A stretch of 42,620 nt of DNA from a virus. The first letter of the stretch is position 1. Each line of letters starts with the position of its first letter. Made by a program: the position numbers and the translations under genes. The notes under the pieces were generated by a model. It had not been told where the DNA came from. It ran no database searches and was given only the letters and a program-made list of their open reading frames with translations. The stretch is from IMG/VR virus record IMGVR_UViG_3300036719_002804; one strand, given 5' to 3'. Positions 16,823 to 31,049 of this stretch are shown piece by piece.

Positions 16823-17631
16823 TGGTTGGCATGACCCCACTGATCGGCTCCTTGGCGATGGGCGGGGCGAACGCCCTGCTGGGGATGTTCGGCGCCGGCC
16901 AGCAGCAGGCTGCAGCGCAGCAGGACTGGCTGAACCAGCGCGCTCAACAGGATGCCAACACCCAATTCGCCCAGTGGCAGGCGGGCTTCAACCAGCGACT
17001 GACGGACGCCAACCAGCAGCACAGCTACTGGCAGGCAACGCTGGCGCACAACCAGCAGCTGGCCTATGTGAACAGCCTGCGCAACTTCGAGCTGAGCAGG
17101 GCAATCGCCCAGGCCGAGGTGGTGGGCCAGACCAGGGCGGCAGCGGGCGCGGACTTTGCGCTGCAGTCGCAGGCGCTGAGTCAGCAGTTGGTCGAGACCT
17201 CGATGGCCGATGCCGTGGCCTACCAGCAGTACCAGGTGGCGGCGCTGAAGGCGCGGTCCACCGTGGCGGCCAGCGGGCAGGAGGGGAGCAGCATCGACCG
17301 GCTGATCAACGACTACGCCCGGCAGCAGGGCGACTTCGCCGCGATCCAGCAGATCAATGAGGGGTTGCGCAACAGGCAGTTCAGCCGGGCCCAGACCGCG
17401 CAGGTGACGCAGTACCTGAGCCAGTACAACAGCCAGCAGTTCTACGAGCAGCAGCCGTACCTGGAGCCGATGGCGCCGTTCCAGCCGCTGCCCACGCTGC
17501 TGATGCCGGCGGCACCCACCTTCACCGGCACGGGCCCCAGCCGTAGCGCTGGCGTGCTCAATGGCCTCACCGGCCTGATGGGCGGGGTGCAGGCCGGGCT
17601 GAGCACCTTCGGCACCCTGAGCAACATCTGA
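16822..17631 (+). CDS. Internal virion protein B, T7 gp14-like
   Basis: Gly/Ala-rich N-terminus and Q-rich coiled coil. EGSSIDRLINDYARQQGDF parallels T7 gp14 EGSSMDRIKRVTEGQFIRE. Confidence 0.7.
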   Translation: MVGMTPLIGSLAMGGANALLGMFGAGQQQAAAQQDWLNQRAQQDANTQFAQWQAGFNQRLTDANQQHSYWQATLAHNQQLAYVNSLRNFELSRAIAQAEVVGQTRAAAGADFALQSQALSQQLVETSMADAVAYQQYQVAALKARSTVAASGQEGSSIDRLINDYARQQGDFAAIQQINEGLRNRQFSRAQTAQVTQYLSQYNSQQFYEQQPYLEPMAPFQPLPTLLMPAAPTFTGTGPSRSAGVLNGLTGLMGGVQAGLSTFGTLSNI

Positions 17632-20516
17632 TGGCACTCCCCCAGAACCAGATCAGGCCCCAGGCCCAGCCGCTGAGCACCTTCATTCAGCCCGCACGGC
17701 GGAATGTCGCGGGGCCAGCAGGGCCGATCGAGATCCCCCGGGTGCAGCAGATCAATGTGATCGGCCAGGCCAGCGGCGGCGATGCACCGGGGGTCAACCG
17801 TTTCCAGCAGGTGGCGCAGGCACTGGCGCCGTTCAACCAGCAGCTGACACAGCTGATGGGCACCGGCCTGCAGGTCTACGCCCAGGCCGAGGTGCAGAAG
17901 GGCGTGAACGAAGCGCTGCGGGCCAAGGCCCTGCTGGAGGAGCAGCAGGCCCAGTCGGGCGCCGAGTACGCAGCCGAGAACCGCAAGCTGGCGCAGGCCG
18001 ACCCGATCGCTGCGCTGGCGATGGATACGGTCAACCCGTTCCGGCAGGCGGGGCGGCAGCGGACGCTGGCGCGGCTGGCCGGGGCCGAGATGCGCACCTC
18101 CCTGCTCAACTCCTACCGGGCCAACCCCGATCTGGTGCTGATCAACCCGGGCACACCCGAGGGCGCGGCAGAGCTGGGGCGGTTCAAGGCAGCCGAGGTG
18201 ACCAAGGTTGCCCAGAAGTACGGGGTGGATCAAAGCTCCCCGGGCTTCACGCAGTTTGTGGCGCCCGAGGTCAACCAGGCCTGGGATCGCATCACCGAGG
18301 TCCAGTGGCAGGACCGCAAGAACTACCTCACCAGCACCATCCCGCGGACGGCGACTGCCGAGATCCTGGGGATCTACCAGGCAGCGGTGAGCCTCAAGCA
18401 GATCGAGGTGTTTGACCCCGATGGCCGCCAGCGGATTGTTCGCCAAGAAGATGGCCCCGAGGTGTGGGAGCAGGCGCTGACGAGTCGCTTCCAGCTGGTG
18501 CTTTCGCGCATCAGGGACGAGACAGGGCTGCCGGGCCAGGCCACGCAGTTGGTGCAGGAGACCGTCGCCAACGTGCTCGCGCAGGCTGAGGCATTTGGCC
18601 TGGGCCAGCTGAGGCGGGTCATGGCCTTCGCCCAGGTGGGCCCGCCTAACGCCGACGGCCAGCCCGGCCAGCTGGCGGGGATGATGTTCCCCGACGTGTT
18701 CCTCGATCAAGAGATCAAGTACGGGGAGGTCAAGTACAAGCGCGACCAGCGGAGGCGGGAGGATCTCAGCAGGGGGTACCAGGACGACCTGGCCCAGCTC
18801 ACCTACTCGATGCCCGATGGGCCGGAGCGGCTGGCAGCGATCGAGAAGCTCCGCGCCAGCGAGGATTACAAGGGGCTGGGCAATTTCGAGAAGCTGGAGC
18901 TGGAGCAGAAAAGCAGCGCCACGATCGACGCAGTGCGCAACTTGGGCCGCAGCAGTGAAGGAGTCGAGCAGCTGCTGCTCGACATGGACGGCCGCTATGG
19001 CACCGCCTGGGATCCCAGCCAGGCCGATGCCGAGATCGAGGCCGCCCTGGCCGCCGCCCCAGACGACAAAAAGGCCGAGCTGCGCCGCCAGTACGCCGCC
19101 ATCCGCCGGCGCAACAACGAGCAGAAGGCCTCACCCACCGCACCGCAGGCCAATGCGGTGATCGAGCGGACGATCAAGGCCAACCTCAGGGCCGCCTACC
19201 CCAACTCGGTCACCGAGGCCGCCTTGCGCGGGGTGAGCGTCGAGAGCGTGATGGCCGGCTGGACCGATGCCAACGTGGCCGAGTCGGCACGGCGGCAGTT
19301 CAGCGCCTTCCAGTCCCACATCAACAACCGGATTGCGGAGGAGCAGGGCAAGCTGGGCCGCCCGCTCACCCCGGCCGAGGTGACCCAGGTGTCCAGCCGG
19401 GCGGTGGAGGAATACGGCAAGAGCACCCCATCGGCCCGCCAGTACCTGTTCCCCGGTGTCGGCGGTGTCCCCGGCGCACAGGGGGCCCCGGCCCAGCCCG
19501 CTGCAGCAGGGCAGCAGAGCAGCGGCCCGCCACCTGGCACCAAGCCATTCACCGGCAAGACCTACCCCAGCAGCCAACTCGACAACATCCCCGACCGTCG
19601 GGCGCTGCTGCAGAGCTGGCGCAACCAGCCGGTGCTCGATGCCCAGTCGGTGGTGAACGAGGGCAACCGGATCCTGAATGGCCAGCAGCCCAGCGCAGCG
19701 CTCCAGCGCTTTGCCCGTGAAGCCGGCACCACCCCGGGCCAGCTGATCAATCGCCACCTGGACTACTACCCCGGCATGGAAATGACACCACAGGAACGGC
19801 AGCGGCTGATGCGCGACGGGCGCCAGGCCCAGGGCGCGGCCAGCAATGCGCAGAGCACGGCGGCCCGCCGCGGCAACCCCACCCCTGGCCCAGTCGCAGC
19901 CGCTGGCGGCTGGCTGATGGACATGCTGCTGGGCGCCCGGCCTGCAGTGGCGGCCCAGCAGTCTTTGTCGTCAGCGGTGGGGATGGGCGGCGGTCAGCAG
20001 GTGGCGGCCCGAGGGAGTGGCGGCGCTTCGGGCCTCCTGGGGCTGATCCGTAGCGGCGAAGGCGACTGGAACTCGGTCAACTTCGGCACGGTGAACAACG
20101 CCGGCCGGGGGATCGGCACCATCACCAACCGCTCGATCGGCTCGCTTGAAGCGATGCAGAACAGCAGGCAGGTGTTTGCCGTCGGCGCCTACCAGTTCAC
20201 CCCGGGCGTCCTGGCCCTGGCCCGCCGCGAAGCAGGCCTGCCGCCCGCCGCCCCCTTCTCCCCCGCCAACCAGGACAAGATGGCGATGGCGCTGCTCACT
20301 GGCTCGAAGCGGCCAGCACTGGCCAACTACCTGACCGGCCGCAGCAGCGACTTGAACGCTGCCCACTGGGAAGTCGCCAGGGAATGGGCGGCGCTGCAAG
20401 CCCCCAATGGACGGGGCGTCTACGACGGCGACAGCGCAGGCAACAGGGCCAGCATCCCTGCTGCGCGAGTGCGGGAAATGCTGATCCAGGCCCGCCGGGG
20501 AATCTCCGGGAGGTAA
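17631..20516 (+). CDS. Large internal virion (ejection) protein with a C-terminal lambda-lysozyme-like lytic transglycosylase domain
   Basis: T7 gp15/16 position. The C-terminus (about 20030..20500) has SGEGDWNSV...VGAYQFTPG...FSPANQDKMAMALL...EWAALQ, resembling the GH104/lambda R pattern SEG...GRYQL...FSPxxQDxxA...WASLP. Confidence 0.65.
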   Translation: MALPQNQIRPQAQPLSTFIQPARRNVAGPAGPIEIPRVQQINVIGQASGGDAPGVNRFQQVAQALAPFNQQLTQLMGTGLQVYAQAEVQKGVNEALRAKALLEEQQAQSGAEYAAENRKLAQADPIAALAMDTVNPFRQAGRQRTLARLAGAEMRTSLLNSYRANPDLVLINPGTPEGAAELGRFKAAEVTKVAQKYGVDQSSPGFTQFVAPEVNQAWDRITEVQWQDRKNYLTSTIPRTATAEILGIYQAAVSLKQIEVFDPDGRQRIVRQEDGPEVWEQALTSRFQLVLSRIRDETGLPGQATQLVQETVANVLAQAEAFGLGQLRRVMAFAQVGPPNADGQPGQLAGMMFPDVFLDQEIKYGEVKYKRDQRRREDLSRGYQDDLAQLTYSMPDGPERLAAIEKLRASEDYKGLGNFEKLELEQKSSATIDAVRNLGRSSEGVEQLLLDMDGRYGTAWDPSQADAEIEAALAAAPDDKKAELRRQYAAIRRRNNEQKASPTAPQANAVIERTIKANLRAAYPNSVTEAALRGVSVESVMAGWTDANVAESARRQFSAFQSHINNRIAEEQGKLGRPLTPAEVTQVSSRAVEEYGKSTPSARQYLFPGVGGVPGAQGAPAQPAAAGQQSSGPPPGTKPFTGKTYPSSQLDNIPDRRALLQSWRNQPVLDAQSVVNEGNRILNGQQPSAALQRFAREAGTTPGQLINRHLDYYPGMEMTPQERQRLMRDGRQAQGAASNAQSTAARRGNPTPGPVAAAGGWLMDMLLGARPAVAAQQSLSSAVGMGGGQQVAARGSGGASGLLGLIRSGEGDWNSVNFGTVNNAGRGIGTITNRSIGSLEAMQNSRQVFAVGAYQFTPGVLALARREAGLPPAAPFSPANQDKMAMALLTGSKRPALANYLTGRSSDLNAAHWEVAREWAALQAPNGRGVYDGDSAGNRASIPAARVREMLIQARRGISGR

Positions 20517-20519
20517 CCC

Positions 20520-23500
20520 ATGCCCATCAAGTTCACCGGCTCCGGCCAGCCTGTTGTCCCCGACAAGCCGCAGCAGGCACCCAAGTACACCGACCAGAAC
20601 CGCCCGCTCGGTTCGCGCTCCGTCCTGGGCGGCCGCCAGGTGGTGTGGGCTGGCCCCGATTGGCGGTGGCAGTCCCCCGCCAGCTACCAGCGGCTGCAGA
20701 GCACCGGCAAGCTCAACCGCTCGCCCTGGAGCAACCCGCTCGGGGCGATCAAGAACGAGCTCAAGTACATCGGCAAGCAGATCGGCGACACCAACCGCCG
20801 CAACCCCCAGGGCTTCGGCGGCCGGGTGCGGCAGGCGGTGACCGGCTCGCTCCCCGGCCTGAATGTGATGAACGTGCTGCCCACCATCGCGGGGCAGACC
20901 GGCCGCAACATCAACGCAGCGCTCACCGTGGGGGCCGCCGAGAACGCCGGCAAGCTGGTGGCGGCCGCCACGCAGGAGCTGCGCGGCAAGCCCGCCAACC
21001 CGGAAGGCAGCAGGCCCGGCAACTTCATCGAGCGGGTGAGCCAGGCCGGCTACCGGGTGATGGGCGCCACCCCGCCCGGGCAGCAGAACGAGTTTGAGCG
21101 GGGCCTGGATGCCACCGCCCGCAGCGTTGGCGCCTCCGTGATCGCCACCGCTATAGCCGTGAAGGCCATCCCTGCCATTGGCGTTGGCGCCACGGGGGCG
21201 GTGATCACCGCCGGCGCACGCTGGGCCGCTGGCGAGCTGCTGGCCACCTTCGCGGACGACAACCGCGGCGGCAACCTGGCCAACCTGGGCGATGCCTTCG
21301 GGATGAAGCTGCCCCTGTCGGTTGACGTGGGCGAGGACGACTGGATCGACTCGGCCATCAAGAGCCTCATCCCCAACGCCTTGCCCGGCGTGGCCATCAG
21401 CGGCGTGGGCGAGGTGGCGGCCGGGGTGACGCGCAGCCCAGGCATCATCAGCTCCCTGCGCAACAGCAAGCGGTGGACCGCCAGCAACCGCAAGGTGGCC
21501 GAGATCACGGACGCCCGCGCACAGCTGGAGCAGGCCGGGGTCACGATGACCGACCCGGACACGGGCGCGATTGCGCTGCGCACGTCCGAGATCGAGGCAG
21601 AGGCGACAGCGCAGGCAGAGATCGACAGGTGGATTGGCGGCGGCGGTGAGCGCCCCCCGGCGGCGCCGGCCCTGCCTGCTGCCGAGCCCACCCCCACTGC
21701 AGCGCCGGCCCTGCCTGCTGCGGCCGATGCCCAGCCACCCAAGGCGGCCGAGCCCGGGGCGGCCGGCGGCGGCCAGCTCGAGGTGGAGGGGGTCGAGGAC
21801 AGCCCGTTCGAGATGATCTACGACCCCAAGCTGCCTGAGGCAGACGTGGTGTTCAATCTGGTGCGGGACCTGGACGACGACCAGCTGCAGATGCTGGTGA
21901 GCCAGCCGGGGCCAGTGGTGGAGCAGCTCGATCAGATGCTGCAGGAACGGCAGGCAATGCCGGTGCGGCCGGAGCTGGCGCAGGGTGCGGTGATGGCCCC
22001 GAGCGAGAACATCGCCGAGCGACTGGACCCCAATGGCCAGCCGATCCCCTACGAGGCCACGCTGGAGGCCATGCCGATGGACACGCTGCGGAGCGCGGCG
22101 GCACCAGACAACAACCCCGAGCTGTCACGGCTGATCGGCGACCTGACCGGCCGCGACTGGGAGGAGTTCACCAAGGCAGACATCATCGAGGGCCTGGCCG
22201 CCTACCAGCAGCAGACCGGCCAGAGCCTGCTGGTGCGCGACTGGAACCAGGGGATGCGACCCACGACCGAGATCGCGGCCGACCCCGAGCGGTTCCAGTT
22301 CAAGCAGGGCGTGAACGAGCAGGGCGAGCAGCTGGGCAGCAGCCTCGCTGGCGTGAACCGGTGGGACACCAATGCCGAAGGGGTGCTCGATGTGTGGACC
22401 GATCCGGCCGATGGCCGCACCTATGTGGTGAACGGCCACAACCGGCTGGCGCGGGCGCTGCAGCTGGGCATCCCCACCGCGCCGGTGCGCGAGCTGCCGG
22501 CGGCCACCGCCCAGGAGGCCCGGGCCATGGGGGCCCTGTCGAACATCAAGGCCGGCCAGGGCACGGTGTTCGATGCGGCCAAGTTCATGCGCGACAGCGG
22601 GATCACCAGCCCCGACCAGCTGCAGCAGATGGGTGTGCCGATGAGCAGCGGCAATGCGGCCCGCGGGCTGGCGCTGGCGCAGCTGCCGGACAACATCTTT
22701 CAGGCTGCAGTGGATGGCCGGCTGTCGGTGGGCAAGGCGGCCTCCCTGGGCGGCAGCGGGCTGGATGACGACGGGATGCAGGCAGCGTTCAAGGCCCTGG
22801 GCAGCCGGGACATGAGCGATGCCAAGTTCAGCGAGGTCATCCAGCAGGTGCAGACCACCCCGCGGATGAAGGTGGACGACGGCCAGACCAAACTCCCGTG
22901 GGGCGACGAGCCGGCGATCCTGCTGCTGGAGCAGAAGGCCGACCTGGTGGTGAAGATCCGCCAGGACCTGCTCAAGGACAAGCGCTTCTTTGGCACGGCC
23001 GCCAAGGGCGCCGGCCGGCTGGAGCAGGCGGGCAACAAGATCAACGTGGCCGGCAACAAGGCCATTGCGGCCGACACCGACACGGTGTTGCGCACCTTCG
23101 ACCAGCTCAAGTACACAGAGGGCCCCGTCAGCGACCTGCTGAACGACGGCGCCCGCCAGATCGCCGAGGGCGCCAAGCCTGGCGTGATCGCTGATCGGAT
23201 CCGCGGCGACATCGCCGAGGCCGTCCGCCGCAGCCTCGATGAGCAGGGGATGCCCACCCAGCGGCCGACGGGGGCCGTGCCGACCGATGACGGCTTCGAC
23301 CTGGAAGCAGAAATGGCGGACAGCGCACGCGCCAGGGAGGAGGCCGATGCCGTGTTCGCCGAAGCGGATGACCTCCTGGCCGGGATGCGAGAGAACACCG
23401 GCCGCATGGCCGAAAACGCCCGCCGGATGCTTGAGGTATCGGCCGGCATCGACGACATCGACGGGGCCGTGCCGACCGATCGGATCGTGCCCAGCCCCCG

Positions 23501-24470
23501 CGTCCTCTCCCCCGAGGAGCGCGCTGCGCTGCAGATCCAGGCCGTGCAGAAGGCCGCCGACCAGGCCGAGATCCGCCCACCCGAGACCCCCATCCCCGAG
23601 CTGCCCGATGGGCCCAGCGTGCGGCCCGATGTGGCCCGTGCCGATCTGGAAGCCCGTGGCCAGCTGGAGCCCGGCAGCCCCGCTGCGCAGGCCGCTGCGG
23701 ACGAGCTGCGGCTGGGGCTGGAGTTCGCCGAGCGCGATGCGCAAATGCAGGCGATTGCGCGGGAGGGCGCCCGCGATGCGATGGATTACGAGCTGCTCAC
23801 CTTCGAGCAGAAGAAGGAGCTGGGCATGGCGGATGGGTATGACCTGGTGCCGCCGGGCCAGACCCTGATCCACGGCACATCCCAGAAAGCTGCCGACTCG
23901 ATCATGGAGGGCGGCTTCCGCCCGTCACGGGTCAAGGCCGGCGGCGCGCTGCTGGGGGATGGGGTCTACATGGCCACCGACTCCCGTTACGCCGGTGCCT
24001 ACGGGAAGGTTGCCGTGGGAGGGGAGGTGCCGGAGGGCGCCCGCATCCTCGACCTGGTGGGCCAAGGCAAGACCGTTTCGGACTTCGCCGAGGAGATCGG
24101 CGTGGGCCGGCCGGCGGATGTGTTCGAGGGCGAGCGGTATTTCAACGATGCGCAGCAGACCCGGGTGCGGCAGTGGGCCGTGGACAACGGCTACGACGGC
24201 ATCAAGTTCGACCCCGCCTTTGACGAGGTGGGCGCAGGGGCCAGTGAGGTAGTGATCTACAACCTCGACCTGGCGAACCGGATGGTGGGGTCGAAAGCAG
24301 GCCTGGCCCCGCCGCCGGTGCGGCCCGAGCCGATGAGGCTGACGGATGGCGACGAGCCGCCAGTCAAGCCCCGCAGCAAGGCCGCCGACCAGGCCGCCCG
24401 CAAACAGATCGAGGCCAACGAACAACGCATGGCCGAGATCCGCCGTCAAGCTCAACAGGAGGGCTGCTGA
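20520..24470 (+). CDS. Polyvalent internal virion protein: central ParB-like domain plus C-terminal PARP-like ADP-ribosyltransferase domain
   Basis: ParB-like region at about 22265..22520 (DPERFQFKQ...GRTYVVNGHNRLARALQLGIPTAPV). ART-like region at about 23850..24275 (LIHGTS...GDGVYMATDSRYAGAY...ASEVVIYN, an H-Y-E pattern). GGGAGG RBS. Lies among the gp14-16-like genes. Confidence 0.6.
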   Translation: MPIKFTGSGQPVVPDKPQQAPKYTDQNRPLGSRSVLGGRQVVWAGPDWRWQSPASYQRLQSTGKLNRSPWSNPLGAIKNELKYIGKQIGDTNRRNPQGFGGRVRQAVTGSLPGLNVMNVLPTIAGQTGRNINAALTVGAAENAGKLVAAATQELRGKPANPEGSRPGNFIERVSQAGYRVMGATPPGQQNEFERGLDATARSVGASVIATAIAVKAIPAIGVGATGAVITAGARWAAGELLATFADDNRGGNLANLGDAFGMKLPLSVDVGEDDWIDSAIKSLIPNALPGVAISGVGEVAAGVTRSPGIISSLRNSKRWTASNRKVAEITDARAQLEQAGVTMTDPDTGAIALRTSEIEAEATAQAEIDRWIGGGGERPPAAPALPAAEPTPTAAPALPAAADAQPPKAAEPGAAGGGQLEVEGVEDSPFEMIYDPKLPEADVVFNLVRDLDDDQLQMLVSQPGPVVEQLDQMLQERQAMPVRPELAQGAVMAPSENIAERLDPNGQPIPYEATLEAMPMDTLRSAAAPDNNPELSRLIGDLTGRDWEEFTKADIIEGLAAYQQQTGQSLLVRDWNQGMRPTTEIAADPERFQFKQGVNEQGEQLGSSLAGVNRWDTNAEGVLDVWTDPADGRTYVVNGHNRLARALQLGIPTAPVRELPAATAQEARAMGALSNIKAGQGTVFDAAKFMRDSGITSPDQLQQMGVPMSSGNAARGLALAQLPDNIFQAAVDGRLSVGKAASLGGSGLDDDGMQAAFKALGSRDMSDAKFSEVIQQVQTTPRMKVDDGQTKLPWGDEPAILLLEQKADLVVKIRQDLLKDKRFFGTAAKGAGRLEQAGNKINVAGNKAIAADTDTVLRTFDQLKYTEGPVSDLLNDGARQIAEGAKPGVIADRIRGDIAEAVRRSLDEQGMPTQRPTGAVPTDDGFDLEAEMADSARAREEADAVFAEADDLLAGMRENTGRMAENARRMLEVSAGIDDIDGAVPTDRIVPSPRVLSPEERAALQIQAVQKAADQAEIRPPETPIPELPDGPSVRPDVARADLEARGQLEPGSPAAQAAADELRLGLEFAERDAQMQAIAREGARDAMDYELLTFEQKKELGMADGYDLVPPGQTLIHGTSQKAADSIMEGGFRPSRVKAGGALLGDGVYMATDSRYAGAYGKVAVGGEVPEGARILDLVGQGKTVSDFAEEIGVGRPADVFEGERYFNDAQQTRVRQWAVDNGYDGIKFDPAFDEVGAGASEVVIYNLDLANRMVGSKAGLAPPPVRPEPMRLTDGDEPPVKPRSKAADQAARKQIEANEQRMAEIRRQAQQEGC

Positions 24471-24472
24471 CC

Positions 24473-27400
24473 ATGGCCAACAACTGCAACGACTTCCAGG
24501 AGCAGCTGCTGAAGCTGCAGGAGCAGAACGCTCAGCTGCAGAAAGACCTCGAAGCATCCGAACGCGCACGCAAGGCCGGCGAACAGTTCCTCAAAGACGA
24601 GGTGAAGCGCCAGTTCGTCATCCCCATGCAGGACGGCACCTCGCGCTCGATCAGCGATGCGGAGATCAACCGGGCCTACCACGACTATGTGTCGCGCATG
24701 AGCTCCGACGAGCTGGACCGGATGGTGCAGCGGGGCCTGGGCAACCGCGCCAAGCCCGTCGGCGCCGAGGGCCGCTTCGTCAACTACCGGCAGCTGATCG
24801 ACAACGCCAACATCCAGAACGCCGAGGACTACGCCAAGCTCAGCGAGGCACTGACTGGCGCCTGGAAGGAGCTTGACCCGGACGACTTTGTCTTCGTGAC
24901 CGAGGTGTACGGCCGTGAGCGGCTGCTGCAGTCCGTCGCCGATGCCTACAAGGAGTTCACCGATGCCGACACGATCGCCGCTGCCCTGGCCAACAACGCC
25001 GCGGCCTTCACCACCCTGGCCGAGCGGATGACTCGCCTGCGGTTCCTGTCGGAAACCGCCAAGACCAGCTACCTCGACACGCTCAAGGCCGTGACCGAGT
25101 ACATGCGAACCACGTCCAGGGCGGTTGTGGCTGAGGAGCTCAAGGAAGGGTCGGGGGATCTTGGGCGCCGCGTTCACAGCTCTTACAAGCTGGCAAAGAT
25201 GGCTCACCGGCACGTCAACATGGCCAAGCGCCGCACCGGCCAGGCGCTTCGCAGCCTGCAGGAGGACTTCGCCGCACCCGATAACTTCCGGGTGGACATG
25301 ACCGAGGCCGAGCAGACGATCGGCGCATCCGCCCGCGACATTCGCTCTGACGAGCACTTCGGCCGGGTGATGGAAGCGATCGACAACGGCAAGACGAACC
25401 CGACCAAGGCGGCAGAGCAGATCGAGCAGCTGCGCATCGCCGCCATGGTGGATGGCATCGACCCCGGATCGCCGCTGGACAAGGGCTGGGAGAACCCTCA
25501 CCTGCGCTTCGGCAATGCGCTGGTGAAGGACAGCCAGCTGCAGAACTTCGGCAGCCAGGTCAAGGCCAACCTGATGGGCACCTGGCTGGCCAACACCCAC
25601 GGCTTCATCCACCAGTCGTTCGAGAACATCGGCAACCTGACCCCCCACGGCACCCGGTTCAGCCGTGAAGCGTTCGGCGAGGGCCTGCGCATCGCCTGGG
25701 AGAGCGCGGCCTACAGCCACAATGCGGTGCGGCGCAGCTGGCGCGAGCTGGCGGCCGATTCCTTCCTCCGCGGCGATGCACCGTTCGGCGGCAACCTCGA
25801 CACCTACGGCAGAAGCAGCAGCAACAACGAGCAGCTGCTGGGTCAGGTGCAGGCGATCATCGAGCAGCCGTACCGCCCCGGCGGCCCGCTGCGGCCCGAG
25901 AACTGGGCCAGCACCGTCCACAAGATCCAGGCTGGCGTGGCCATGCTCCGCTACCACTGGAGCGGCAAGAACCCGGCGATGCTCACCCCCGCGCTGCGGG
26001 CGATGAGCGCCACCGACAGCGTGCTGGGCTACGACGCCTTCGCGTTCAAGCTGAAGAACGACCTGGAGATCAAGGCCCGCCGCGATGGCGTGCAGCTGGG
26101 CCTGCTAGATCAGCGCACCCGCGACGAGTGGGTAACGAAGCAGATGGAGGAGGCCTTCTACCAGGCCGCCCCCACCGAGGCGAACGTCAAGGCCTTCCGC
26201 CGGCAGCACAAGCTCAAAGGCAGCGACATCACCGACGACGAGATCAAGGCGATCATCACCGCCGAGCGGGTGCGGCAGACCTACGGCCGCCCCACGCTGG
26301 ACACGCCAGAGGCGCAGGAGGCAATGGCCTACTCGCTCAGGAACCGGATGCAGGCAGCGCCCGAGGGCGGTCTGCCTGGCGCCATCGACACGGCCGTGAT
26401 GGAAGCGCGCAAGCACTGGGCCGTCGATGCGCTGGTGCCCTACTGGCGGGCGCCGTTCAACCAGTTCCTGTTCGACACCCGCCTCACCTTCGGGCCGCTG
26501 GCGGAAACGATCGAGATTATCTTCGACAAGAACCCCACCAAGGAGCAGATCGCCAAGGTGCAGGCCGGCTGGGTGGTGACCGGCGGCCTGCTGGGCCTGT
26601 TCGCCGGGCTGGACATGATGGGCCTGATCGAGGGCAACGGGCCGCTGGAGCCGAACGCCCGCCGCGCCTGGCTGCTGGAAGGCAACAAGCCAAACACCCT
26701 CGCCGGTGTGCCCTACCTGGGCGGCCTGCCGATCCTCAACACGCTGTTCCTGTGGAAGGACATCAAGGAAACCTTCGTCAGCGGCACATACAGCAACTTC
26801 GACCAGAACAAGGCTTGGTGGGGGATCGCCCAGGTGCTCACCAGTCAGCTGATCCGCCAGACCGGCTTCGGCCAGCTGCAGCGGCTGGTGGATGCGCTGC
26901 TCGACCCAGAGCAGCAGATGCCCCGGCTGGTGCAGTGGCTCGGCCAGGGCCAGCTGCCTGGCAGCGGCATCATGCGCGGCCTGCAGCGGGCCACCGGCTC
27001 CAATGCCACCGACTTCTACCGGGACGAGCTGCCCAATGCGACCGAGCGGGCAATGCTGGGTGAGGACGACCCGGCAGCCCAGATCGAGCGCAACCTGCGC
27101 AACCTGGCCTTCGGCACCATTCCCCTGCTGGGCCTCCCCGGCGGCGCACCGCGCAAGGAGCAGGACTTCCTGGGCCAGCCCATCCGGCTGGAGTTCGGCG
27201 CCGACTGGGCCGAGGCGATGAAATCCCGCTTCCACCCGCGCATGTGGCCCCGCGCCAACCAGCGGGTCTATGCCGAGCTCGACGCCCAGGGCCGCCTCAC
27301 CCTGCCCGGGCCACTGCTCACCCGTCAGCTGGAGGGGGTATCGATGAGCAGCGAGCTGCAGAAGGAGTACAACGACACCTTCGGCACCGTGAAGGGCAAC

Positions 27401-27907
27401 ATCCCCCTGGAGGCGCGGATGGCGCTGGCCGGCCGCAAGGTGTCGGTGAGCTTCCCTATGCAGCTGGAAACCCCGATCGACATGCGCAAGCAGTTCGCGG
27501 GCGCTGGCGTGGTGGTGGCCAAGAGCGGCAGCAGCGCCACGATCGACCTGGGCCCGTTCCTCTCGAAGCACGTCAAGGGCCGCACGATCGTCGAGGCCTT
27601 CACCTCCCTGTTCAACGATCCGGTCTACAAGCGGATGCAGGATCTCCCCGGCACCACCTCCGATCTGGAAGTGCGGGACATGCCGCCAGCACGCCGCCGC
27701 GCACAGGCCGCATCGCAGATGATCCAGGGCGTCTACGACTACTACCAGCTGCTCACTCAGGACCAGCTGGAGGCATCGAGCACCCCCGCCGCCCAGGACT
27801 GGCGCGAGCGGCGGGCAGCGATTGCCAGGGAGGCGTTCAAGGGTCAGACCGACAAGCTGCGCGACCTGATGGAATCCCTGGGCCAGCCAGTCCCGGCCCA
27901 GCGGTAG
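24473..27907 (+). CDS. Large internal virion (ejection/core) protein, T7 gp15/gp16 position
   Basis: 1144 aa with an N-terminal coiled coil. Lies directly upstream of the tail fibre as T7 gp16 does. No catalytic motif recognised. Confidence 0.6.
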   Translation: MANNCNDFQEQLLKLQEQNAQLQKDLEASERARKAGEQFLKDEVKRQFVIPMQDGTSRSISDAEINRAYHDYVSRMSSDELDRMVQRGLGNRAKPVGAEGRFVNYRQLIDNANIQNAEDYAKLSEALTGAWKELDPDDFVFVTEVYGRERLLQSVADAYKEFTDADTIAAALANNAAAFTTLAERMTRLRFLSETAKTSYLDTLKAVTEYMRTTSRAVVAEELKEGSGDLGRRVHSSYKLAKMAHRHVNMAKRRTGQALRSLQEDFAAPDNFRVDMTEAEQTIGASARDIRSDEHFGRVMEAIDNGKTNPTKAAEQIEQLRIAAMVDGIDPGSPLDKGWENPHLRFGNALVKDSQLQNFGSQVKANLMGTWLANTHGFIHQSFENIGNLTPHGTRFSREAFGEGLRIAWESAAYSHNAVRRSWRELAADSFLRGDAPFGGNLDTYGRSSSNNEQLLGQVQAIIEQPYRPGGPLRPENWASTVHKIQAGVAMLRYHWSGKNPAMLTPALRAMSATDSVLGYDAFAFKLKNDLEIKARRDGVQLGLLDQRTRDEWVTKQMEEAFYQAAPTEANVKAFRRQHKLKGSDITDDEIKAIITAERVRQTYGRPTLDTPEAQEAMAYSLRNRMQAAPEGGLPGAIDTAVMEARKHWAVDALVPYWRAPFNQFLFDTRLTFGPLAETIEIIFDKNPTKEQIAKVQAGWVVTGGLLGLFAGLDMMGLIEGNGPLEPNARRAWLLEGNKPNTLAGVPYLGGLPILNTLFLWKDIKETFVSGTYSNFDQNKAWWGIAQVLTSQLIRQTGFGQLQRLVDALLDPEQQMPRLVQWLGQGQLPGSGIMRGLQRATGSNATDFYRDELPNATERAMLGEDDPAAQIERNLRNLAFGTIPLLGLPGGAPRKEQDFLGQPIRLEFGADWAEAMKSRFHPRMWPRANQRVYAELDAQGRLTLPGPLLTRQLEGVSMSSELQKEYNDTFGTVKGNIPLEARMALAGRKVSVSFPMQLETPIDMRKQFAGAGVVVAKSGSSATIDLGPFLSKHVKGRTIVEAFTSLFNDPVYKRMQDLPGTTSDLEVRDMPPARRRAQAASQMIQGVYDYYQLLTQDQLEASSTPAAQDWRERRAAIAREAFKGQTDKLRDLMESLGQPVPAQR

Positions 27908-27955: not shown

Positions 27956-29983
27956 GTGTCCCTCTCCTACATCACCTACCCCGGCAACGGCAGCACCAAA
28001 GACTTTGACGTGCCGTTTCCTTACCTCAGCCGGGCCCATGTGCGGGTCGGCTACGGGTGGGACTATTTCGAGGACACGCTGACCACTGAGCTGTTCACCC
28101 CTGGCGGCTTCACCTGGATCAGCGACACCCGCATCCGGCTCACTAACCCTGCCCCCAGCGGACAGGAGCTGACCATCCTCCGCGCCACGCCCAAGGCGGT
28201 ACAGCTGGTGGAGTGGACCGACAGCTCGACCGTCCAGGCCTTTGATCACAACCGGGCCGATCTGCAGAGCCTGTATGCGATCCAGGAGCTGAACGACCGC
28301 AGCCGCTTCGCGCGCGCCAATCTGATACTCGTACCTGCTGGTGCAACCGATGCCGCGCTGGCTGCAGCGTTTGCAGATGCTGCTGCAAACGACAAGAAGA
28401 TTGTTTTTAGCGAGGATACAACTGTCAAGATCCCAACGGTTGCGGCGACCATCCAGGCGGTATGCGAGCTGGTGGTGCCTACGGTAAATGTAGAGATTCT
28501 GATTGAGAGTGGGCATGAGATCGAGAACGCCAACACGCTCAGCGACGGGGATTACGGCAAGTTCCGCATCACAAGTATTGACGCAGAGGTGAAGGTCGGC
28601 ACAAGCCTGCCTGCCACGCAAGGCGTCGTGCAGTGCTTCAACGCCACCGCCCTGCAGTGGGATGTGCTGCTGGACTGCGACGGCCTCGCGGACTATGGGC
28701 TGGCGCTGTTCAATTCGAGAGGCTACCTGGCCCCCGCGAAAGGGATCCGCAAGGCACGGCGGGCCAACCTGTTTGCCACCCAGTCGTCAACTGTCAGCGC
28801 CCCAGGAGCGCCGGGCGTGGGGAGCATCCTCGCCGACGGGCTCGAGCATGGCGCATGGATCACATGGTCGTCTTCGCTGTCCTGTCACCTGACCGACTTT
28901 CGCAACAACGGGAGCGCGAATAGCGATGGCTACGGAATCTTTGCTTCGCGGGGTTCTCACATTCAGGCTGACCGAGCCGACTACAGAGGCTCTGCAAACG
29001 GAATCCGCAACGGTCGGTCCATTGTTTGCTCTCGCATCGCCAAATTTGATGGCATTCCCGGCTACTCGATTGTCGTTATTGAACTAGGCTTTACCAGCGC
29101 TTCAGTTGGCTCTTTTGACAACTGCGGCACTGCGGGAAATGGTAAGTCCATCTTGCAAGTAGGATTTGGCGCTGGGGATCGGGATCAATCTGGCGGGCAA
29201 ATCAATGCAGAAAGCTCAACCTTCAACAATGCCAAGGCAGATCACATAGCAGAAGTAATTGGCGGCGATGGGTACATCAACATCGACAACTGTAGCGGCA
29301 CCGGGATCGAAAAGAAGCTCGCGCTCGTAAGCAGGGGTACGATCACCTGCAACCGGGGCAGCTATTCGGTGGCGGCAAGTAACGAGTCCACCGAGCTTAT
29401 CCTTTCAGCTCGCGGCGGCAGGTTCCAATCATTCGCCACGATCTTCGATGGCGGCGGCACAGTGCGGAATGTTGGCCGCGCACTGGGTGACGGCTTCCTC
29501 AGTCTAGACTCAGCTCTGTCAACCAACTTCACGGAAGCCGTTATCGCCCGCCTCGAAGATGCGGGAACATGCTACGCCAGGGGGGCGTCCCATAACGGAA
29601 GCACGAATGTTCTGCAGAGGGGGACCAACGCCAATGGTGGTTTCGCCAGATACAGCGATGGCACGCAACATTGCTGGGCATGGCTGGAAGTCACGAATAT
29701 CGCAGGGGACGGCAAGCGGATGTCCAGAACCTGGAACTACCCGGCAGCGTTCGTTGAACCGCTGGTATCAATCAGTGTCACAGGCACCATCAGCAGAAGA
29801 AACTCCAACAACGCCGTTGTGGGGACAACCGACGCAAAGCTCAAGGACTGCGAACTTCTATCCGGGGCAACATCCGCCGCCGGGCACGAGTTTTTCGTGG
29901 AGATCAATTCCACCGCCGTTACCACATTCGTGACCGGCGACACCTGCTGGATCCGCGCCCATGCCATCGGGAGGTGGTTCTGA
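27956..29983 (+). CDS. Tail fibre/tailspike with a T7 gp17-like N-terminal adaptor domain
   Basis: YPGNGSTKDFDVPFPYLSRAHVRV...ELTILRATPKAVQLVEWTDSSTVQAFDHNRADLQSLYAIQE parallels T7 gp17 DGSNRDFNIPFEYLARKFVVV...[37 protein letters not shown]. The distal part (about 28300..29983) has lower GC. GTG start. Confidence 0.85.
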   Translation: MSLSYITYPGNGSTKDFDVPFPYLSRAHVRVGYGWDYFEDTLTTELFTPGGFTWISDTRIRLTNPAPSGQELTILRATPKAVQLVEWTDSSTVQAFDHNRADLQSLYAIQELNDRSRFARANLILVPAGATDAALAAAFADAAANDKKIVFSEDTTVKIPTVAATIQAVCELVVPTVNVEILIESGHEIENANTLSDGDYGKFRITSIDAEVKVGTSLPATQGVVQCFNATALQWDVLLDCDGLADYGLALFNSRGYLAPAKGIRKARRANLFATQSSTVSAPGAPGVGSILADGLEHGAWITWSSSLSCHLTDFRNNGSANSDGYGIFASRGSHIQADRADYRGSANGIRNGRSIVCSRIAKFDGIPGYSIVVIELGFTSASVGSFDNCGTAGNGKSILQVGFGAGDRDQSGGQINAESSTFNNAKADHIAEVIGGDGYINIDNCSGTGIEKKLALVSRGTITCNRGSYSVAASNESTELILSARGGRFQSFATIFDGGGTVRNVGRALGDGFLSLDSALSTNFTEAVIARLEDAGTCYARGASHNGSTNVLQRGTNANGGFARYSDGTQHCWAWLEVTNIAGDGKRMSRTWNYPAAFVEPLVSISVTGTISRRNSNNAVVGTTDAKLKDCELLSGATSAAGHEFFVEINSTAVTTFVTGDTCWIRAHAIGRWF

Positions 29984-30756: not shown

Positions 30757-31049
30757 AGTGGTCCCTGGATGATGTCCGCATTATCGGGGACATCGTGGCG
30801 GCATCCCTGCTGGCCAGGATGGTCCAGCTGGTCGCCCTCAAGGCCTTCATCGAGCCCGCCGGCCACTTCATCGGCACCGCGTTCTGGCAGCGCCTCAGGG
30901 GCCTCTCCGGTGACCGGCTGCCGGCACTGCTGTGGGTGTCAGCGTTCCTGGAACACCCCGATGTAGACAATGCCCTTGGCGATCAGCGGCAGCACTCGAT
31001 CCCGCAGGTCGATGTTGTGCATCCGGAGGCAACCGAGTGTCGGGTGTAG
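30753..31049 (+). CDS. Hypothetical protein whose 3' end overlaps the convergent lysin gene
   Basis: ATGA overlap start. The last 111 nt are antisense to 30939..32102, so the true function of the C-terminal end is uncertain. Confidence 0.35.
   Translation: MKWSLDDVRIIGDIVAASLLARMVQLVALKAFIEPAGHFIGTAFWQRLRGLSGDRLPALLWVSAFLEHPDVDNALGDQRQHSIPQVDVVHPEATECRV

What the first reader, a model, noticed from the sequence alone, without database searches (positions are those of the whole stretch)
20520..24470. Ejected polyvalent virion protein carrying a ParB-like domain and a PARP-like (H-Y-E) ADP-ribosyltransferase domain
T7 has two large internal core proteins (gp15, gp16). This genome has three giant ORFs in that position (961, 1316 and 1144 aa).

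The middle one contains a ParB N-terminal-type segment at about 22265..22520 (DPERFQFKQ...VVNGHNRLARALQLGIPTAPV). About 130 aa from its C-terminus (about 23850..24275) it reads LIHGTS...GALLGDGVYMATDSRYAGAYG...GASEVVIYN. That is the His / Gly-x-Gly-x-Tyr / Glu-x-x-(V/I)-x-Tyr layout of PARP/diphtheria-toxin-class ARTs.

Internal core proteins are ejected into the host ahead of the DNA. This would therefore be an injected host-modifying or anti-defence effector, functionally analogous to T4 Alt but fused to the T7-type ejectosome. It fits the polyvalent-protein concept described by Iyer, Aravind and colleagues. I am not aware of such a fusion being described for T7-like core proteins.
Basis: partly seen in the sequence, partly recalled or inferred. 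Interest (0 to 1): 0.85.

Follow-up and report, generated by a model that had tools for sequence, protein, structure and literature searches.

The report
Phage virion protein carrying swappable PARP-like enzyme
A T7-like phage has an extra giant gene among its DNA-ejection genes, encoding a conserved scaffold with a ParB-like DNA-binding module and a PARP-like ADP-ribosyltransferase; related phages swap this enzyme for other cargo, so it is probably a protein weapon delivered with the DNA.

Summary
ORF 20520..24470 (+, 1316 aa) is a real gene in a T7-like structural operon, between nozzle and tail fibre, flanked by 961-aa and 1144-aa ORFs.

Residues 1106-1265 are an ADP-ribosyltransferase (ART) of the H-Y-E clade:
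- A 32-sequence profile hits only PARPs and tankyrases among solved structures (best E=2.4e-6).
- Pfam PARP matches 28 of 32 relatives.
- An AlphaFold model (pLDDT 93.6) matches PARP1/2/3/4 and diphtheria-toxin folds (probability 1.00).
- H1118, Y1150 and E1243 sit in strands 1, 2 and 5.

Residues 578-790 resemble the ParB N-domain plus HTH. The support is only moderate (E=4.5e-4, hhalign 80%), and no structure was modelled.

New here: the ART is an internal cassette. Forty homologs share the scaffold and the last 50 residues. At two hot-spots bounded by Pro-rich junction motifs they carry other ART-like, HExxH or unknown modules.

This fits the known polyvalent-protein concept (Iyer 2017), in a T7-like setting I found no description of. 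Ejection into the host is inferred from gene position only, and the enzyme's target is unknown.

The parts
20508..20513 (+). Ribosome-binding site GGGAGG, 6 nt upstream of the ATG
   Evidence: Read directly from the sequence.
20520..24470 (+). Whole gene, 1316 aa: polyvalent protein in the internal-core (ejectosome) gene block
   Evidence: GC3 is 0.90. Forty homologs were found, and an identical protein lies on at least 7 contigs.
20520..21809 (+). Conserved N-terminal scaffold region (residues 1-430). It matches no known family and is presumed to be the virion-incorporation or membrane module.
   Evidence: It is conserved in all 40 homologs at 25-95% identity. It has no Pfam, NCBIfam or PDB match.
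21105..21221 (+). Gly/Ala-rich hydrophobic stretch (residues 196-234), a possible membrane-inserting segment
   Evidence: The Kyte-Doolittle 19-residue window peaks at 1.79. The stretch is conserved in the family consensus.
22251..22889 (+). ParB-like N-terminal domain plus ParB-type HTH (residues 578-790). G639-H640-N641-R642 are invariant and align to the ParB GERR box; N675 aligns to the ENLQR box.
   Evidence: Profile A3 against the PDB: the top 7 hits are all ParB/Noc/Spo0J, best E=4.5e-4. hhalign against Spo0J gives 80% probability, E=1.5e-5. Pfam HTH_ParB matches 7 of 14 members, sub-threshold. JGI names 3 homologs 'ParB-like'. The match weakens with the broader profile.
22890..23234 (+). 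Helical region (residues 791-905) that always travels with the ParB-like module
   Evidence: It matches phrog_21 together with the ParB region, E=5.7e-45. It is found with the ParB module in 13 distant giant proteins.
23235..23504 (+). Cassette hot-spot 1 (residues 906-995), after the junction EQG(M/L)PT(A/Q)RP. Here it holds a short acidic helical module.
   Evidence: Homologs carry from 21 to 301 residues at this site, including two other ART-like modules.
23505..23834 (+). Conserved connector (residues 996-1105), ending in ...YELxTFEEKKxLGMxDGYD
23835..24314 (+). PARP-like ADP-ribosyltransferase domain (residues 1106-1265), occupying cassette hot-spot 2. H1118 is at nt 23871-23873, Y1150 at 23967-23969, Y1161 at 24000-24002 and E1243 at 24246-24248.
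   Evidence: Pfam PARP E=7.2e-5 on the whole protein and 1.2e-5 on the isolated domain, both below the gathering score. Family profile against the PDB: PARPs only, best E=2.4e-6. AF2 model pLDDT 93.6. Foldseek matches to PARP1/2/3/4 and diphtheria toxin at probability 1.00 and to phage PolyVal ARTs.
24303..24347 (+). Pro-rich junction motif LAPPPVRPEPMRLTD (residues 1262-1276), marking the cassette boundary
   Evidence: The motif is present in 30 of the 41 proteins searched (40 homologs plus fragment P0041), twice in one multi-cassette protein.
24315..24467 (+). Conserved basic/helical C-terminal tail (residues 1266-1316), ending in an invariant Gly-Cys
   Evidence: The truncated homolog P0041 has the same ending.
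17631..20516 (+). Upstream neighbour, 961 aa, with a C-terminal lysozyme-like peptidoglycan-hydrolase domain (residues 810-961, nt 20058..20513). This is typical of ejection proteins.
   Evidence: tblastn finds 95 phage records; the features under the matches are annotated lysozyme, endolysin, tape-measure or tail protein.
24473..27907 (+). Downstream neighbour, 1144 aa, with a weak match to an internal-virion-protein family
   Evidence: phrog_6651 'internal virion protein', E=4.4e-4. There is a syntenic homolog in uvMED phage S31C1.

Best explanation
The gene encodes a polyvalent effector that occupies an extra slot in the internal-core (ejectosome) gene block of a T7-like podovirus.

**Scaffold.** The conserved part consists of:
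- an N-terminal 430 aa with a hydrophobic segment;
- a ParB-like NTP/DNA-binding module plus a helical region;
- a connector;
- a 50-aa C-terminal tail.

I infer that this scaffold is packaged in the capsid with the core proteins and expelled through the tail at infection.

**Cargo.** Two internal cargo bays, bounded by conserved Pro-rich junctions, hold exchangeable modules. In this phage the second bay holds a catalytically intact H-Y-E ADP-ribosyltransferase related to PARPs, diphtheria-type toxins and the ART-PolyVal family.

**Proposed action.** Once in the cell, the enzyme would use host NAD+ to ADP-ribosylate a host macromolecule before any phage gene is expressed. The most likely target is a protein of the defence or transcription/translation machinery. 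This would resemble T4 Alt or the anti-CRISPR ART AcrIF11. The ParB-like module would keep the protein at the entering DNA or act on nucleotides or DNA.

**Shown:** the gene, its context, the ART fold and triad, a ParB-like profile match, and the cassette mosaicism.
**Inferred:** packaging, ejection, enzymatic activity, and the target.
For: **Context**
- The gene lies between the nozzle and the T7-type fibre, in a tightly coupled operon with 269-, 961- and 1144-aa ORFs.
- The window also has a T7-type RNA polymerase, exonuclease, portal, capsid and terminase genes.
- The upstream 961-aa protein ends in a muralytic domain.
- The same five-gene layout occurs in Prochlorococcus phage P-SCSP1g, uvMED phage S31C1 and metagenomic contigs.

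**ART**
- Pfam PARP gives E=7.2e-5.
- The family profile hits 117 PDB sequences at E<1, and the 60 listed are all PARP-family ART domains: PARPs, tankyrases and one ZAP (PARP13) entry.
- 28 of 32 relatives hit Pfam PARP, and 15 of 32 hit ART-PolyVal.
- A relative, P0049, passes the PARP gathering score at 56.7 bits.
- The AF2 model has pLDDT 93.6 and pTM 0.89, with H13, Y45 and E138 in strands 1, 2 and 5.
- Foldseek returns PARP1/2/3/4/10/12/14/15 and diphtheria-type toxins at probability 0.9-1.0.
- Phage PARP-like and PolyVal ARTs match at E down to 2.4e-6.
- hhalign pairs H1118, Y1150 and Y1161 with PARP1 H862, Y896 and Y907.
- The triad is intact in 35 of 52 domain copies. Where it is lost, H and E tend to be lost together.

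**Polyvalent nature**
- Two cassette hot-spots hold alternative modules. Segment identities are discordant between homologs. For example, P0005 is 95% identical in the N-terminus but lacks the ART, while P0010 is 53% identical in the N-terminus but has an 89% identical ART.
- The same ParB-plus-helical module lies upstream of this ART type in 13 distant proteins of 1100-3200 aa.
Against: - There is no direct evidence that the protein is in virions or is ejected.
- The scaffold has no detectable similarity to T7 gp15 or gp16, or to any solved structure.
- The query's own Pfam PARP score (22.8-25.4 bits) is below the gathering threshold of 26.7.
- Sequence-profile alignments cover only the H...Y...Y half of the domain. 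The Glu is placed by motif, conservation and the model's secondary structure.
- The ParB assignment loses significance with a broader profile, and Pfam ParBc and DdrB-ParB do not match.
- The one cultured relative, P-SCSP1g, has a degenerate triad (K-Y-E).
- No ADP-ribose eraser or reader was found among the window ORFs that were scanned.
Confidence: 0.62

Rival explanations
1. The protein is the same packaged protein, but the ART acts on nucleic acid rather than on protein. Guided by the adjacent ParB-like DNA-binding module, it would ADP-ribosylate host DNA, phage DNA ends or RNA. This would resemble DarT or the pierisin/scabin type of DNA ADP-ribosylation. The effect would be to block host replication or defence nucleases, or to mark and protect the entering genome.
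For: The ParB-like plus HTH module is always found upstream of this ART type, in 13 distant giant proteins as well as in the close family. The H-Y-E clade includes nucleic-acid-modifying ARTs (established knowledge; reviewed in PMC9503650 and PMC8120803). A stand-alone homolog of the ParB-like module sits beside an FtsK/SpoIIIE DNA translocase in a cyanobacterial mobile element, which points to a DNA-handling role.
Against: The closest fold and profile matches are protein-modifying PARPs and toxins, not DarT. Many homologs keep the ParB module but replace the ART with unrelated cassettes, so the two are not an obligate pair.
Confidence: 0.15
2. The domain works mainly as an NAD+ glycohydrolase. 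On entry it would deplete or reshape the host NAD+ pool, or destroy NAD-derived immune signals, rather than modify a specific target.
For: The NAD+-binding H-Y-E triad is intact. ART-fold enzymes can hydrolyse NAD+ when no acceptor is present (established knowledge). NAD+-centred defence and counter-defence is widespread in phages (PMC9503650).
Against: Only a few copies per virion would be delivered, which makes them a poor sink for a millimolar metabolite. The catalytic Glu and the PARP-like acceptor-side strand are conserved, as in true transferases.
Confidence: 0.08
3. The protein is not ejected. It is a late-expressed cytoplasmic or assembly protein whose ART acts in the producing cell, for example in late host shut-off or superinfection exclusion. 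Its position among the core genes would reflect only co-regulation.
For: No proteomic or structural evidence for packaging exists. The scaffold shows no homology to known core proteins. Authors of the cultured relatives only 'speculate' that the large genes encode internal virion proteins (PMC9860041).
Against: The position is conserved between a muralytic core-type protein and another giant ORF, upstream of the fibre, in all relatives. Both termini are conserved while the cargo is internal, which suggests structural constraints on the ends. The polyvalent-protein precedent includes P1 DdrB and the N4 virion RNA polymerase, both of which are packaged (PMC5512222).
Confidence: 0.1
4. The ART-like domain is catalytically dead or purely structural (a pseudo-enzyme), kept as a binding module.
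For: 17 of 52 domain copies in the wider family have degenerate triads (Q-Y-Q, K-Y-E and others), including the cultured phage P-SCSP1g. Inactive versions are therefore clearly tolerated.
Against: This copy and all its close relatives keep H, Y, Y and E invariant. H and E tend to be lost together elsewhere, which implies that they are under joint functional selection where they are present.
Confidence: 0.05

Closest known systems
Polyvalent proteins of phages and conjugative elements (Iyer, Burroughs, Anand, de Souza, Aravind 2017; PMC5512222)
   Same: It is a large multidomain phage protein encoded among late virion genes. It combines an ART with a ParB/Srx-type domain, and in homologs with HExxH metallopeptidase-like modules. 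Orthologs show extensive mosaicism. It is predicted to be delivered with the DNA.
   Different: That paper's text does not mention T7-like phages (0 occurrences of 'T7-like'; its three 'podovir' mentions, as far as displayed, concern the N4-like Roseovarius Plymouth podovirus 1). Here the cargo sits in two internal bays between conserved N- and C-terminal scaffold parts and is bounded by a repeated Pro-rich junction. It is not appended to MuF, portal or virion-RNA-polymerase modules.
ART-PolyVal (Pfam PF18760) / Tox-ART-HYD2 clade, prototyped by the ART fused to the N4-like virion RNA polymerase of Roseovarius Plymouth podovirus 1
   Same: It is an H-Y-[EDQ] clade ART found in virion-associated giant proteins of podoviruses. 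15 of 32 relatives match PF18760. Structure matches include PolyVal ARTs and a roseophage virion RNA polymerase.
   Different: The described family has an H-Y-D active site (PMC5512222), whereas this one is H-Y-E. This one scores better against Pfam PARP (28 of 32 relatives), and the query itself does not match PF18760. The carrier protein is unrelated to the N4 virion RNA polymerase.
PARP catalytic domain (Pfam PF00644) and diphtheria toxin / exotoxin A catalytic domains
   Same: The fold is the same (Foldseek probability 1.00, TM-score normalised to the query 0.45-0.51). The signatures are the same: HG[ST], GxG[VI]Y[FM], a second Tyr, and E-x-x-[VI]-[YF].
   Different: The domain is a compact 160 aa with no PARP helical regulatory domain, and it has a different helical insert between the two halves. 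Identity to PARPs is 13-19%. The query scores just under the Pfam gathering score. Nothing indicates poly-ADP-ribose synthesis.
T4 Alt (packaged, injected ART)
   Same: The proposed logic is the same: an ART carried in the capsid, injected with the DNA, and acting before phage gene expression.
   Different: Alt belongs to the R-S-E clade (Alt/VIP2) and is a single-domain head protein of a myovirus (PMC5512222). There is no sequence relationship.
T7 gp14/gp15/gp16 internal core (ejectosome) proteins and phiKMV-type internal virion proteins
   Same: The genomic slot is the same, between tail tube B and the fibre. The sizes are similar. The neighbour carries a muralytic domain, as do T7 gp16 and phiKMV gp36 (established knowledge).
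   Different: No detectable sequence similarity was found. This lineage has one more giant ORF than T7. Whether the protein is part of the core stack is unknown.
Chromosomal ParB/Spo0J/Noc and the DdrB-like ParB of phage P1
   Same: The box aligned to GERRxRA has an invariant Arg, followed by a ParB-type HTH. As with DdrB, it sits in a virion-gene context.
   Different: The motif is GHNR rather than GERR. There is no ParA partner and no ParB C-terminal dimerisation domain. Pfam ParBc and DdrB-ParB do not match. CTP binding is untested.
Polymorphic toxins (CdiA-CT, Rhs) and the phage anti-CRISPR ART AcrIF11
   Same: As in polymorphic toxins, a conserved delivery scaffold carries variable effector cassettes demarcated by a short conserved motif. 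AcrIF11 shows that a phage ART can be a specific anti-defence enzyme (PMC12421852). An anti-CRISPR structure, 6kyf, appears among the fold matches; from memory this is AcrIF11.
   Different: These are analogies only. No immunity gene is evident here, and delivery is by virion rather than by a secretion system. There is no evidence of CRISPR targeting.

Membership tests
ADP-ribosyltransferase superfamily, H-Y-E (PARP / diphtheria-toxin) clade | Split beta-sheet ART fold | tested here: met
   The AF2 model has pLDDT 93.6 and pTM 0.89. The top 50 Foldseek PDB hits are almost all PARP or diphtheria-type toxin catalytic domains, at probability 0.9-1.0 and best E=5.3e-4. BFVD returns phage PARP-like and PolyVal ARTs at E down to 2.4e-6.
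ADP-ribosyltransferase superfamily, H-Y-E (PARP / diphtheria-toxin) clade | His in strand 1, Tyr in strand 2 and Glu at strand 5, all conserved | tested here: met
   H1118 is invariant, and Y1150 and E1243 are at least 90% conserved, across 32 diverse relatives. They fall in model strands 10-15, 44-47 and 138-141. H, Y and the second Y align to PARP3 and PARP1 H/Y/Y. The triad is intact in 35 of 52 copies.
ADP-ribosyltransferase superfamily, H-Y-E (PARP / diphtheria-toxin) clade | H, Y and E cluster around one NAD+-binding cleft | not testable with these tools
   Model coordinates are not exposed. Only the secondary structure and the Foldseek summary are available.
ADP-ribosyltransferase superfamily, H-Y-E (PARP / diphtheria-toxin) clade | NAD+-dependent ADP-ribosyl transfer | not testable with these tools
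   This needs a biochemical assay.
Pfam PARP (PF00644) | Score at or above the gathering threshold (26.7 bits) | tested here: not met
   The query scores 22.8 bits as the whole protein and 25.4 bits as the isolated domain. Relatives do pass, for example P0049 at 56.7 bits. Overall, 28 of 32 relatives match at E<0.01.
Pfam ART-PolyVal (PF18760) / Tox-ART-HYD2 | Profile match and an H-Y-D active site | tested here: inconclusive
   15 of 32 relatives match at E<0.01, but the query does not. The third catalytic residue here is Glu, not Asp, whereas the family is described as H-Y-D in PMC5512222.
ParB/Srx superfamily (ParB N-terminal domain) | Profile similarity, in register, to the ParB N-domain box with its conserved Arg (GERRxRA) | tested here: inconclusive
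   The top 7 PDB hits of profile A3 are all ParB/Noc/Spo0J, at E from 4.5e-4 to 4.4e-3. hhalign against Spo0J gives 80% probability and pairs VVNGHNRLARA with IVAGERRFRAA. The broader profile A5 gives no PDB hit and only 4% probability, although in the same register. Pfam ParBc does not match.
ParB/Srx superfamily (ParB N-terminal domain) | ParB/Srx alpha+beta fold | not tested
ParB HTH domain (PF17762) | Profile match following the N-domain | tested here: inconclusive
   7 of 14 members match, with best E=0.017, below threshold. A distant relative, P0082, matches at E=8.4e-4. The best PDB alignments cover this region.
DdrB-like ParB of polyvalent proteins (Iyer 2017) | Match to the DdrB-ParB profile | tested here: not met
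   No Pfam hit to a DdrB-ParB model at E<=1.
Polyvalent proteins (Iyer 2017) | Two or more unrelated effector-type domains in one large polypeptide of a phage or mobile element, encoded among virion or late genes, with mosaic architectures among orthologs | tested here: met
   The protein has a ParB-like domain and an ART. It lies in the structural operon. Two cassette hot-spots hold alternative modules in 40 homologs.
T7 gp15/gp16-type internal core proteins | Sequence or structural homology to gp15/gp16 or to annotated internal virion protein families | tested here: not met
   No PDB hit for the full-length family profile at E<1. No PHROG 'internal virion protein' hit for this ORF; only the 1144-aa neighbour has a weak one. 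The evidence is positional only.
T7 gp15/gp16-type internal core proteins | Presence in the virion and ejection into the host | not testable with these tools
   This needs virion proteomics or cryo-EM. The papers on the cultured relatives give no such data.

The most novel reading that the evidence does not exclude
The family is a polymorphic-effector delivery platform built into the T7-type ejection apparatus. A conserved scaffold has two internal cargo bays whose boundaries, the Pro-rich junctions EQG(L/M)PTARP and LAPAPVRPEP(L/M)xLxD, serve as recombination joints and possibly as cleavage sites. Through these, near-identical phages would exchange ARTs, metallopeptidase-like modules and unknown modules, much as CdiA and Rhs toxins swap their tips. 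In this reading, the ParB-like module and the ART act together at the entering DNA, either on DNA itself or on DNA-bound defence proteins.
Probability: 0.3. Interest if true: 0.8.

Novelty: new variant of a known kind. Interest (0 to 1): 0.6.

Why it matters
T7-like phages are usually thought to eject only channel-forming core proteins. A conserved extra core-block protein that carries interchangeable enzymes would mean these small phages also pre-load anti-host or anti-defence weapons, which would act before transcription starts.

The cassette bays give a ready-made catalogue of candidate early effectors, many with no known family. They also give a natural design for loading cargo into T7-type virions.

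The lineage is common in aquatic metagenomes and includes Prochlorococcus phages. The effectors may therefore influence infection outcomes in abundant marine and freshwater bacteria.

Tried and rejected
1. The first AF2 model of the ART, from 9 close homologs, was useless (pLDDT 46.9). It was replaced by a model from a 32-sequence alignment.
2. The word-indexed homolog search with the ART alignment returned only one protein, P0041. That protein is the C-terminal fragment of a disrupted homolog, not a stand-alone ART.
3. The full-length family profile against the PDB gave nothing. NCBIfam and PADLOC also gave nothing.
4. Broadening the ParB profile with stand-alone homologs (A5) lost the ParB hits instead of strengthening them.
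5. Pfam scans of ten alternative cassettes gave only weak hints: DUF3990 at E=0.01 and ART-PolyVal at E=0.049. Calling them ART-like or metallopeptidase-like therefore rests on motifs alone.
6. I looked for ADP-ribose erasers, readers or NAD-salvage genes in the window and found none among the ORFs scanned.
7. Megablast of the gene against 50,697 phage genomes found no close DNA relative.
8. Literature searches for ART plus internal virion/ejection proteins of T7-like phages found nothing relevant.
9. I considered whether P0155 is a stand-alone ParB-like protein. It is a fragment of a frameshifted T7-like structural region.

Full report
**1. Observation**

ORF 20520..24470 (+) exists exactly as described: ATG start, 1316 codons, and all quoted peptide strings present. 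It has a GGGAGG ribosome-binding site. It is packed 3 nt after the stop of the 961-aa ORF and 2 nt before the ATG of the 1144-aa ORF. Its codon-position GC (0.72/0.49/0.90) matches that of the identified structural genes. An identical protein is found on at least 7 metagenomic contigs of up to 42.8 kb, and 40 homologs were retrieved. It is a real, conserved gene.

**2. Context**

The window is a T7-like podovirus genome. Identified genes include:

| Coordinates | Gene |
|---|---|
| 17..952 | C-terminal part of a T7-type RNA polymerase |
| 7638..8423 | exonuclease |
| 9403..11031 | portal |
| 12110..13144 | capsid |
| 13243..13884 | tail tube A |
| 13881..16376 | nozzle (Pfam E=4.7e-220) |
| 27956..29983 | T7-type tail fibre |
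| 32369..34132 (−) | large terminase |

Between nozzle and fibre lie ORFs of about 150, 269, 961, 1316 and 1144 aa. T7 has gp13, gp14, gp15 and gp16 in this slot (established knowledge), so there is indeed one extra giant ORF. The same five-gene layout recurs in several relatives:
- Prochlorococcus phage P-SCSP1g, where the middle protein is 2563 aa;
- uvMED phage S31C1, where it is 1484 aa;
- metagenomic contigs.

The 961-aa neighbour ends in a lysozyme-like domain shared with tape-measure, tail and endolysin proteins. That is typical of ejected wall-degrading proteins. The 1144-aa neighbour weakly matches a PHROG 'internal virion protein' family (E=4.4e-4). The target itself shows no similarity to T7 gp15/gp16 or to any solved structure outside its two recognisable domains. 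Its assignment to the ejectosome is therefore positional.

**3. The ART domain (residues 1106-1265, nt 23835..24314)**

- Single-sequence Pfam gives PARP at E=7.2e-5, which is 22.8 bits and below the gathering score of 26.7.
- An exhaustive HMMER search of 1.84 billion representatives found 106 relatives at E<1e-3. Most sit inside proteins of 1000-3200 aa.
- A 32-sequence alignment of diverse relatives (24-56% identity to the query) shows H1118 invariant, with Y1150, Y1161 and E1243 at least 90% conserved.
- The profile of that alignment hits 117 PDB sequences at E<1. The 60 listed are all PARP-family ART domains (PARPs, tankyrases, one ZAP/PARP13 entry); the best is PARP3 at E=2.4e-6. HGT aligns to the PARP HG[ST], and GxGVY to GKGIYF.
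- 28 of 32 relatives hit Pfam PARP (best E=1.2e-8), and 15 of 32 hit ART-PolyVal. Relative P0049, with two tandem copies, passes the PARP threshold at 56.7 bits.
- hhalign pairs H1118, Y1150 and Y1161 with PARP1 H862, Y896 and Y907 at 85% probability.
- AlphaFold2 on the 32-sequence alignment gave pLDDT 93.6 and pTM 0.89. H falls in strand 10-15, Y in strand 44-47, and E opens strand 138-141.
- Foldseek against the PDB returned almost only PARP1/2/3/4/10/12/14/15 and diphtheria-type toxin catalytic domains. Probability was up to 1.00 and the TM-score normalised to the query was 0.45-0.51.
- Foldseek against viral models returned phage 'PARP catalytic domain' proteins (E=2.4e-6), PolyVal ARTs, a MuF fusion, a 1022-aa 'ParB/Sulfiredoxin' phage protein and a roseophage virion RNA polymerase.
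- Across 52 domain copies the triad is H-Y-E in 35. Where it is degenerate, H and E tend to go together, for example Q-Y-Q four times. That is what one expects of a catalytic pair.

I could not measure spatial clustering of the triad, because coordinates are not exposed.

**4. The ParB-like module (residues 578-790, nt 22251..22889)**

- phmmer of the whole protein gave Spo0J as the top PDB hit, at E=0.12.
- A 14-sequence profile that includes the P-SCSP1g and S31C1 proteins gave ParB, Noc and Spo0J as the top seven PDB hits. E ranged from 4.5e-4 to 4.4e-3, and the hits cover the N-domain box and the HTH.
- hhalign against Spo0J gave 80% probability (E=1.5e-5). It pairs YVVNGHNRLARA with DIVAGERRFRAA, SNIK with ENLQ, and LPDNIFQAAVDGRLS with LPENIQQLIAEGTLS.
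- G639, H640, N641, R642 and N675 are invariant.
- JGI's pipeline names three homologs of the module 'ParB-like chromosome segregation protein Spo0J'.
- One such stand-alone homolog lies next to an FtsK/SpoIIIE translocase in a cyanobacterial integrative element.

Against this:
- Pfam ParBc and DdrB-ParB do not match, and HTH_ParB is sub-threshold.
- A broader 29-sequence profile lost the PDB hits and dropped to 4% hhalign probability, although it kept the same register.

I rate the ParB call as probable (about 0.75). It is a divergent GHNR variant with a ParB-type HTH, and it is not a DdrB-like ParB. No structure model was made for it because both prediction jobs went to the ART.

**5.

Segment-wise comparison of the 40 homologs shows three conserved parts: residues 1 to about 1108, the ParB and helical block, and the last roughly 50 residues, ending in an invariant Gly-Cys. 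The ART segment, by contrast, is present in only about a dozen homologs.

In the others the same bay contains different modules:
- a different ART-like module (FHGA...YGxGFY...HQVRIYWDP; one member matches ART-PolyVal at E=9e-5);
- HExxH-containing modules;
- at least four small domains with no family;
- or almost nothing.

Modules are separated by a repeated junction, LAP[AP]P[VAI]RPEP[LM]xL[ATV]D. This motif is present in 30 of the 41 proteins searched (40 homologs plus fragment P0041) and twice in one multi-cassette protein.

A second bay follows EQG(L/M)PT(A/Q)RP at residues 906-995. It holds 21 to 301 residues, including two further ART-like modules: LVHATT...GTGVYVGD...AEIVIFD, and RLYRGT...GDGLFMTPD. 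The query has a short acidic helical module there.

Identities are discordant between segments. P0005 is 95% identical in the N-terminus yet lacks the ART. P0010 is 53% identical in the N-terminus yet has an 89% identical ART. This indicates recent exchange.

In the wider ART family, 13 proteins of 1100-3200 aa have the same ParB-plus-helical module upstream of this ART type. The cultured P-SCSP1g protein also has both, but with a K-Y-E triad.

**6. Mechanism**

What is shown:
- a conserved gene in the ejectosome block;
- an intact H-Y-E ART fold;
- a ParB-like module;
- a hydrophobic segment at residues 196-234;
- internal cassette bays.

What is inferred: the scaffold is packaged with the core proteins, expelled at infection, and anchors at or crosses the inner membrane. 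The ART then uses host NAD+ to modify a host target before phage transcription. This is analogous to T4 Alt, to the ARTs fused to the virion RNA polymerase of N4-like phages (PMC5512222), or to the anti-CRISPR ART AcrIF11 (PMC12421852). The fast turnover of cassettes argues for a conflict (anti-defence) role rather than housekeeping.

Rivals are nucleic-acid modification guided by the ParB module, NADase activity, action in the producing cell without ejection, and a pseudo-enzyme. They are listed with their tests in the rival-explanations section.

**7. Comparison with what is known, and novelty**

Polyvalent proteins combining ARTs, ParB/Srx domains and metallopeptidases in virion-gene contexts were defined in 2017 (PMC5512222), and head-packaged ARTs were reviewed in 2022 (PMC9503650). 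The kind is therefore known.

- The 2017 paper's text does not mention T7-like phages or cyanophages.
- The papers on the cultured relatives leave these genes unannotated and only 'speculate' that they encode internal virion proteins (PMC9860041; PMC10575957).
- Full-text searches found no description of an ART in a T7-like core or ejection protein.

The features that look new are the H-Y-E (PARP-leaning) ART, the GHNR ParB variant with HTH, the both-ends-conserved scaffold with two internal junction-bounded bays, and the T7-like ejectosome position. Together these make it a new variant of a known kind.

**8. Verdict**

- Packaging, ejection, enzymatic activity and target remain untested.
- Interest is 0.6.

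Noticed in passing
window 17631..20516 (residues 810-961 = nt 20058..20513): The 961-aa upstream giant ORF ends in a lysozyme-like peptidoglycan-hydrolase domain. The domain is shared with tape-measure, tail and endolysin proteins of cyanophages and Burkholderia phages. This suggests a muralytic ejection protein, like phiKMV gp36 or T7 gp16.
   Followed up: partly
window 39783..40769 (+): A tyrosine integrase (Pfam Phage_integrase, E=2.1e-19) is present in a T7-like genome, so the phage may be temperate.
   Followed up: no
window 5067..6530 (+): A 487-aa protein has a methyltransferase-like N-terminus (Cons_hypoth95) plus DUF4942. Its N-terminal domain also matches PHROG families built from giant (1200-3400 aa) methyltransferase-containing proteins. 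It may be a free-standing relative of a polyvalent-protein module.
   Followed up: no
window 36692..37780 (+): A 362-aa ORF matches PHROG 7245 'anti-restriction protein' (E=1.8e-62). This is a second candidate counter-defence gene in the same genome.
   Followed up: no
window 30939..32102 (-): An endolysin-like protein combines a Glucosaminidase domain with a weak YkuD (L,D-transpeptidase fold) match.
   Followed up: no
window 24315..24467 (residues 1266-1316): The C-terminal tail is conserved to the very last residues. Gly1315 and Cys1316 are invariant in 32 homologs, and the same ending occurs in the truncated P0041. This is unexplained. It could be a packaging or interaction signal, or a site of modification.
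   Followed up: partly
L001 10621..18312 (Prochlorococcus phage P-SCSP1g, 2563-aa protein; ART-like region residues 1538-1696): The cultured relative has the same ParB-like module and the same ART type, but the catalytic His is replaced (LRKGTS; triad K-Y-E). In the wider family, 17 of 52 copies have degenerate triads, with H and E often lost together (Q-Y-Q).
   Followed up: partly
L009 8001..9011 (cyanobacterial metagenome scaffold): A stand-alone 336-aa homolog of the ParB-like plus helical module sits beside an FtsK/SpoIIIE translocase, a DUF3987 protein and a XisA/C-type recombinase, in what looks like an integrative mobile element.
   Followed up: no
homologs P0003, P0016, P0033, P0004, P0014, P0022, P0031 (cassette regions): At least three further ART-like cassette types occur in the two bays: LVHATT..GTGVYVGD..AEIVIFD, RLYRGT..GDGLFMTPD, and FHGA..YGxGFY..HQVRIYWDP. 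P0014 carries two different ART types in tandem, and P0049 carries two copies of the query's type.
   Followed up: partly
window 3092..3655 (+) and 1638..2027 (+): One small protein has an NrdR-like zinc ribbon (E=3.7e-10). Another is a RusA-type Holliday-junction resolvase (E=1.8e-7). Both lie in the early/replication region.
   Followed up: no
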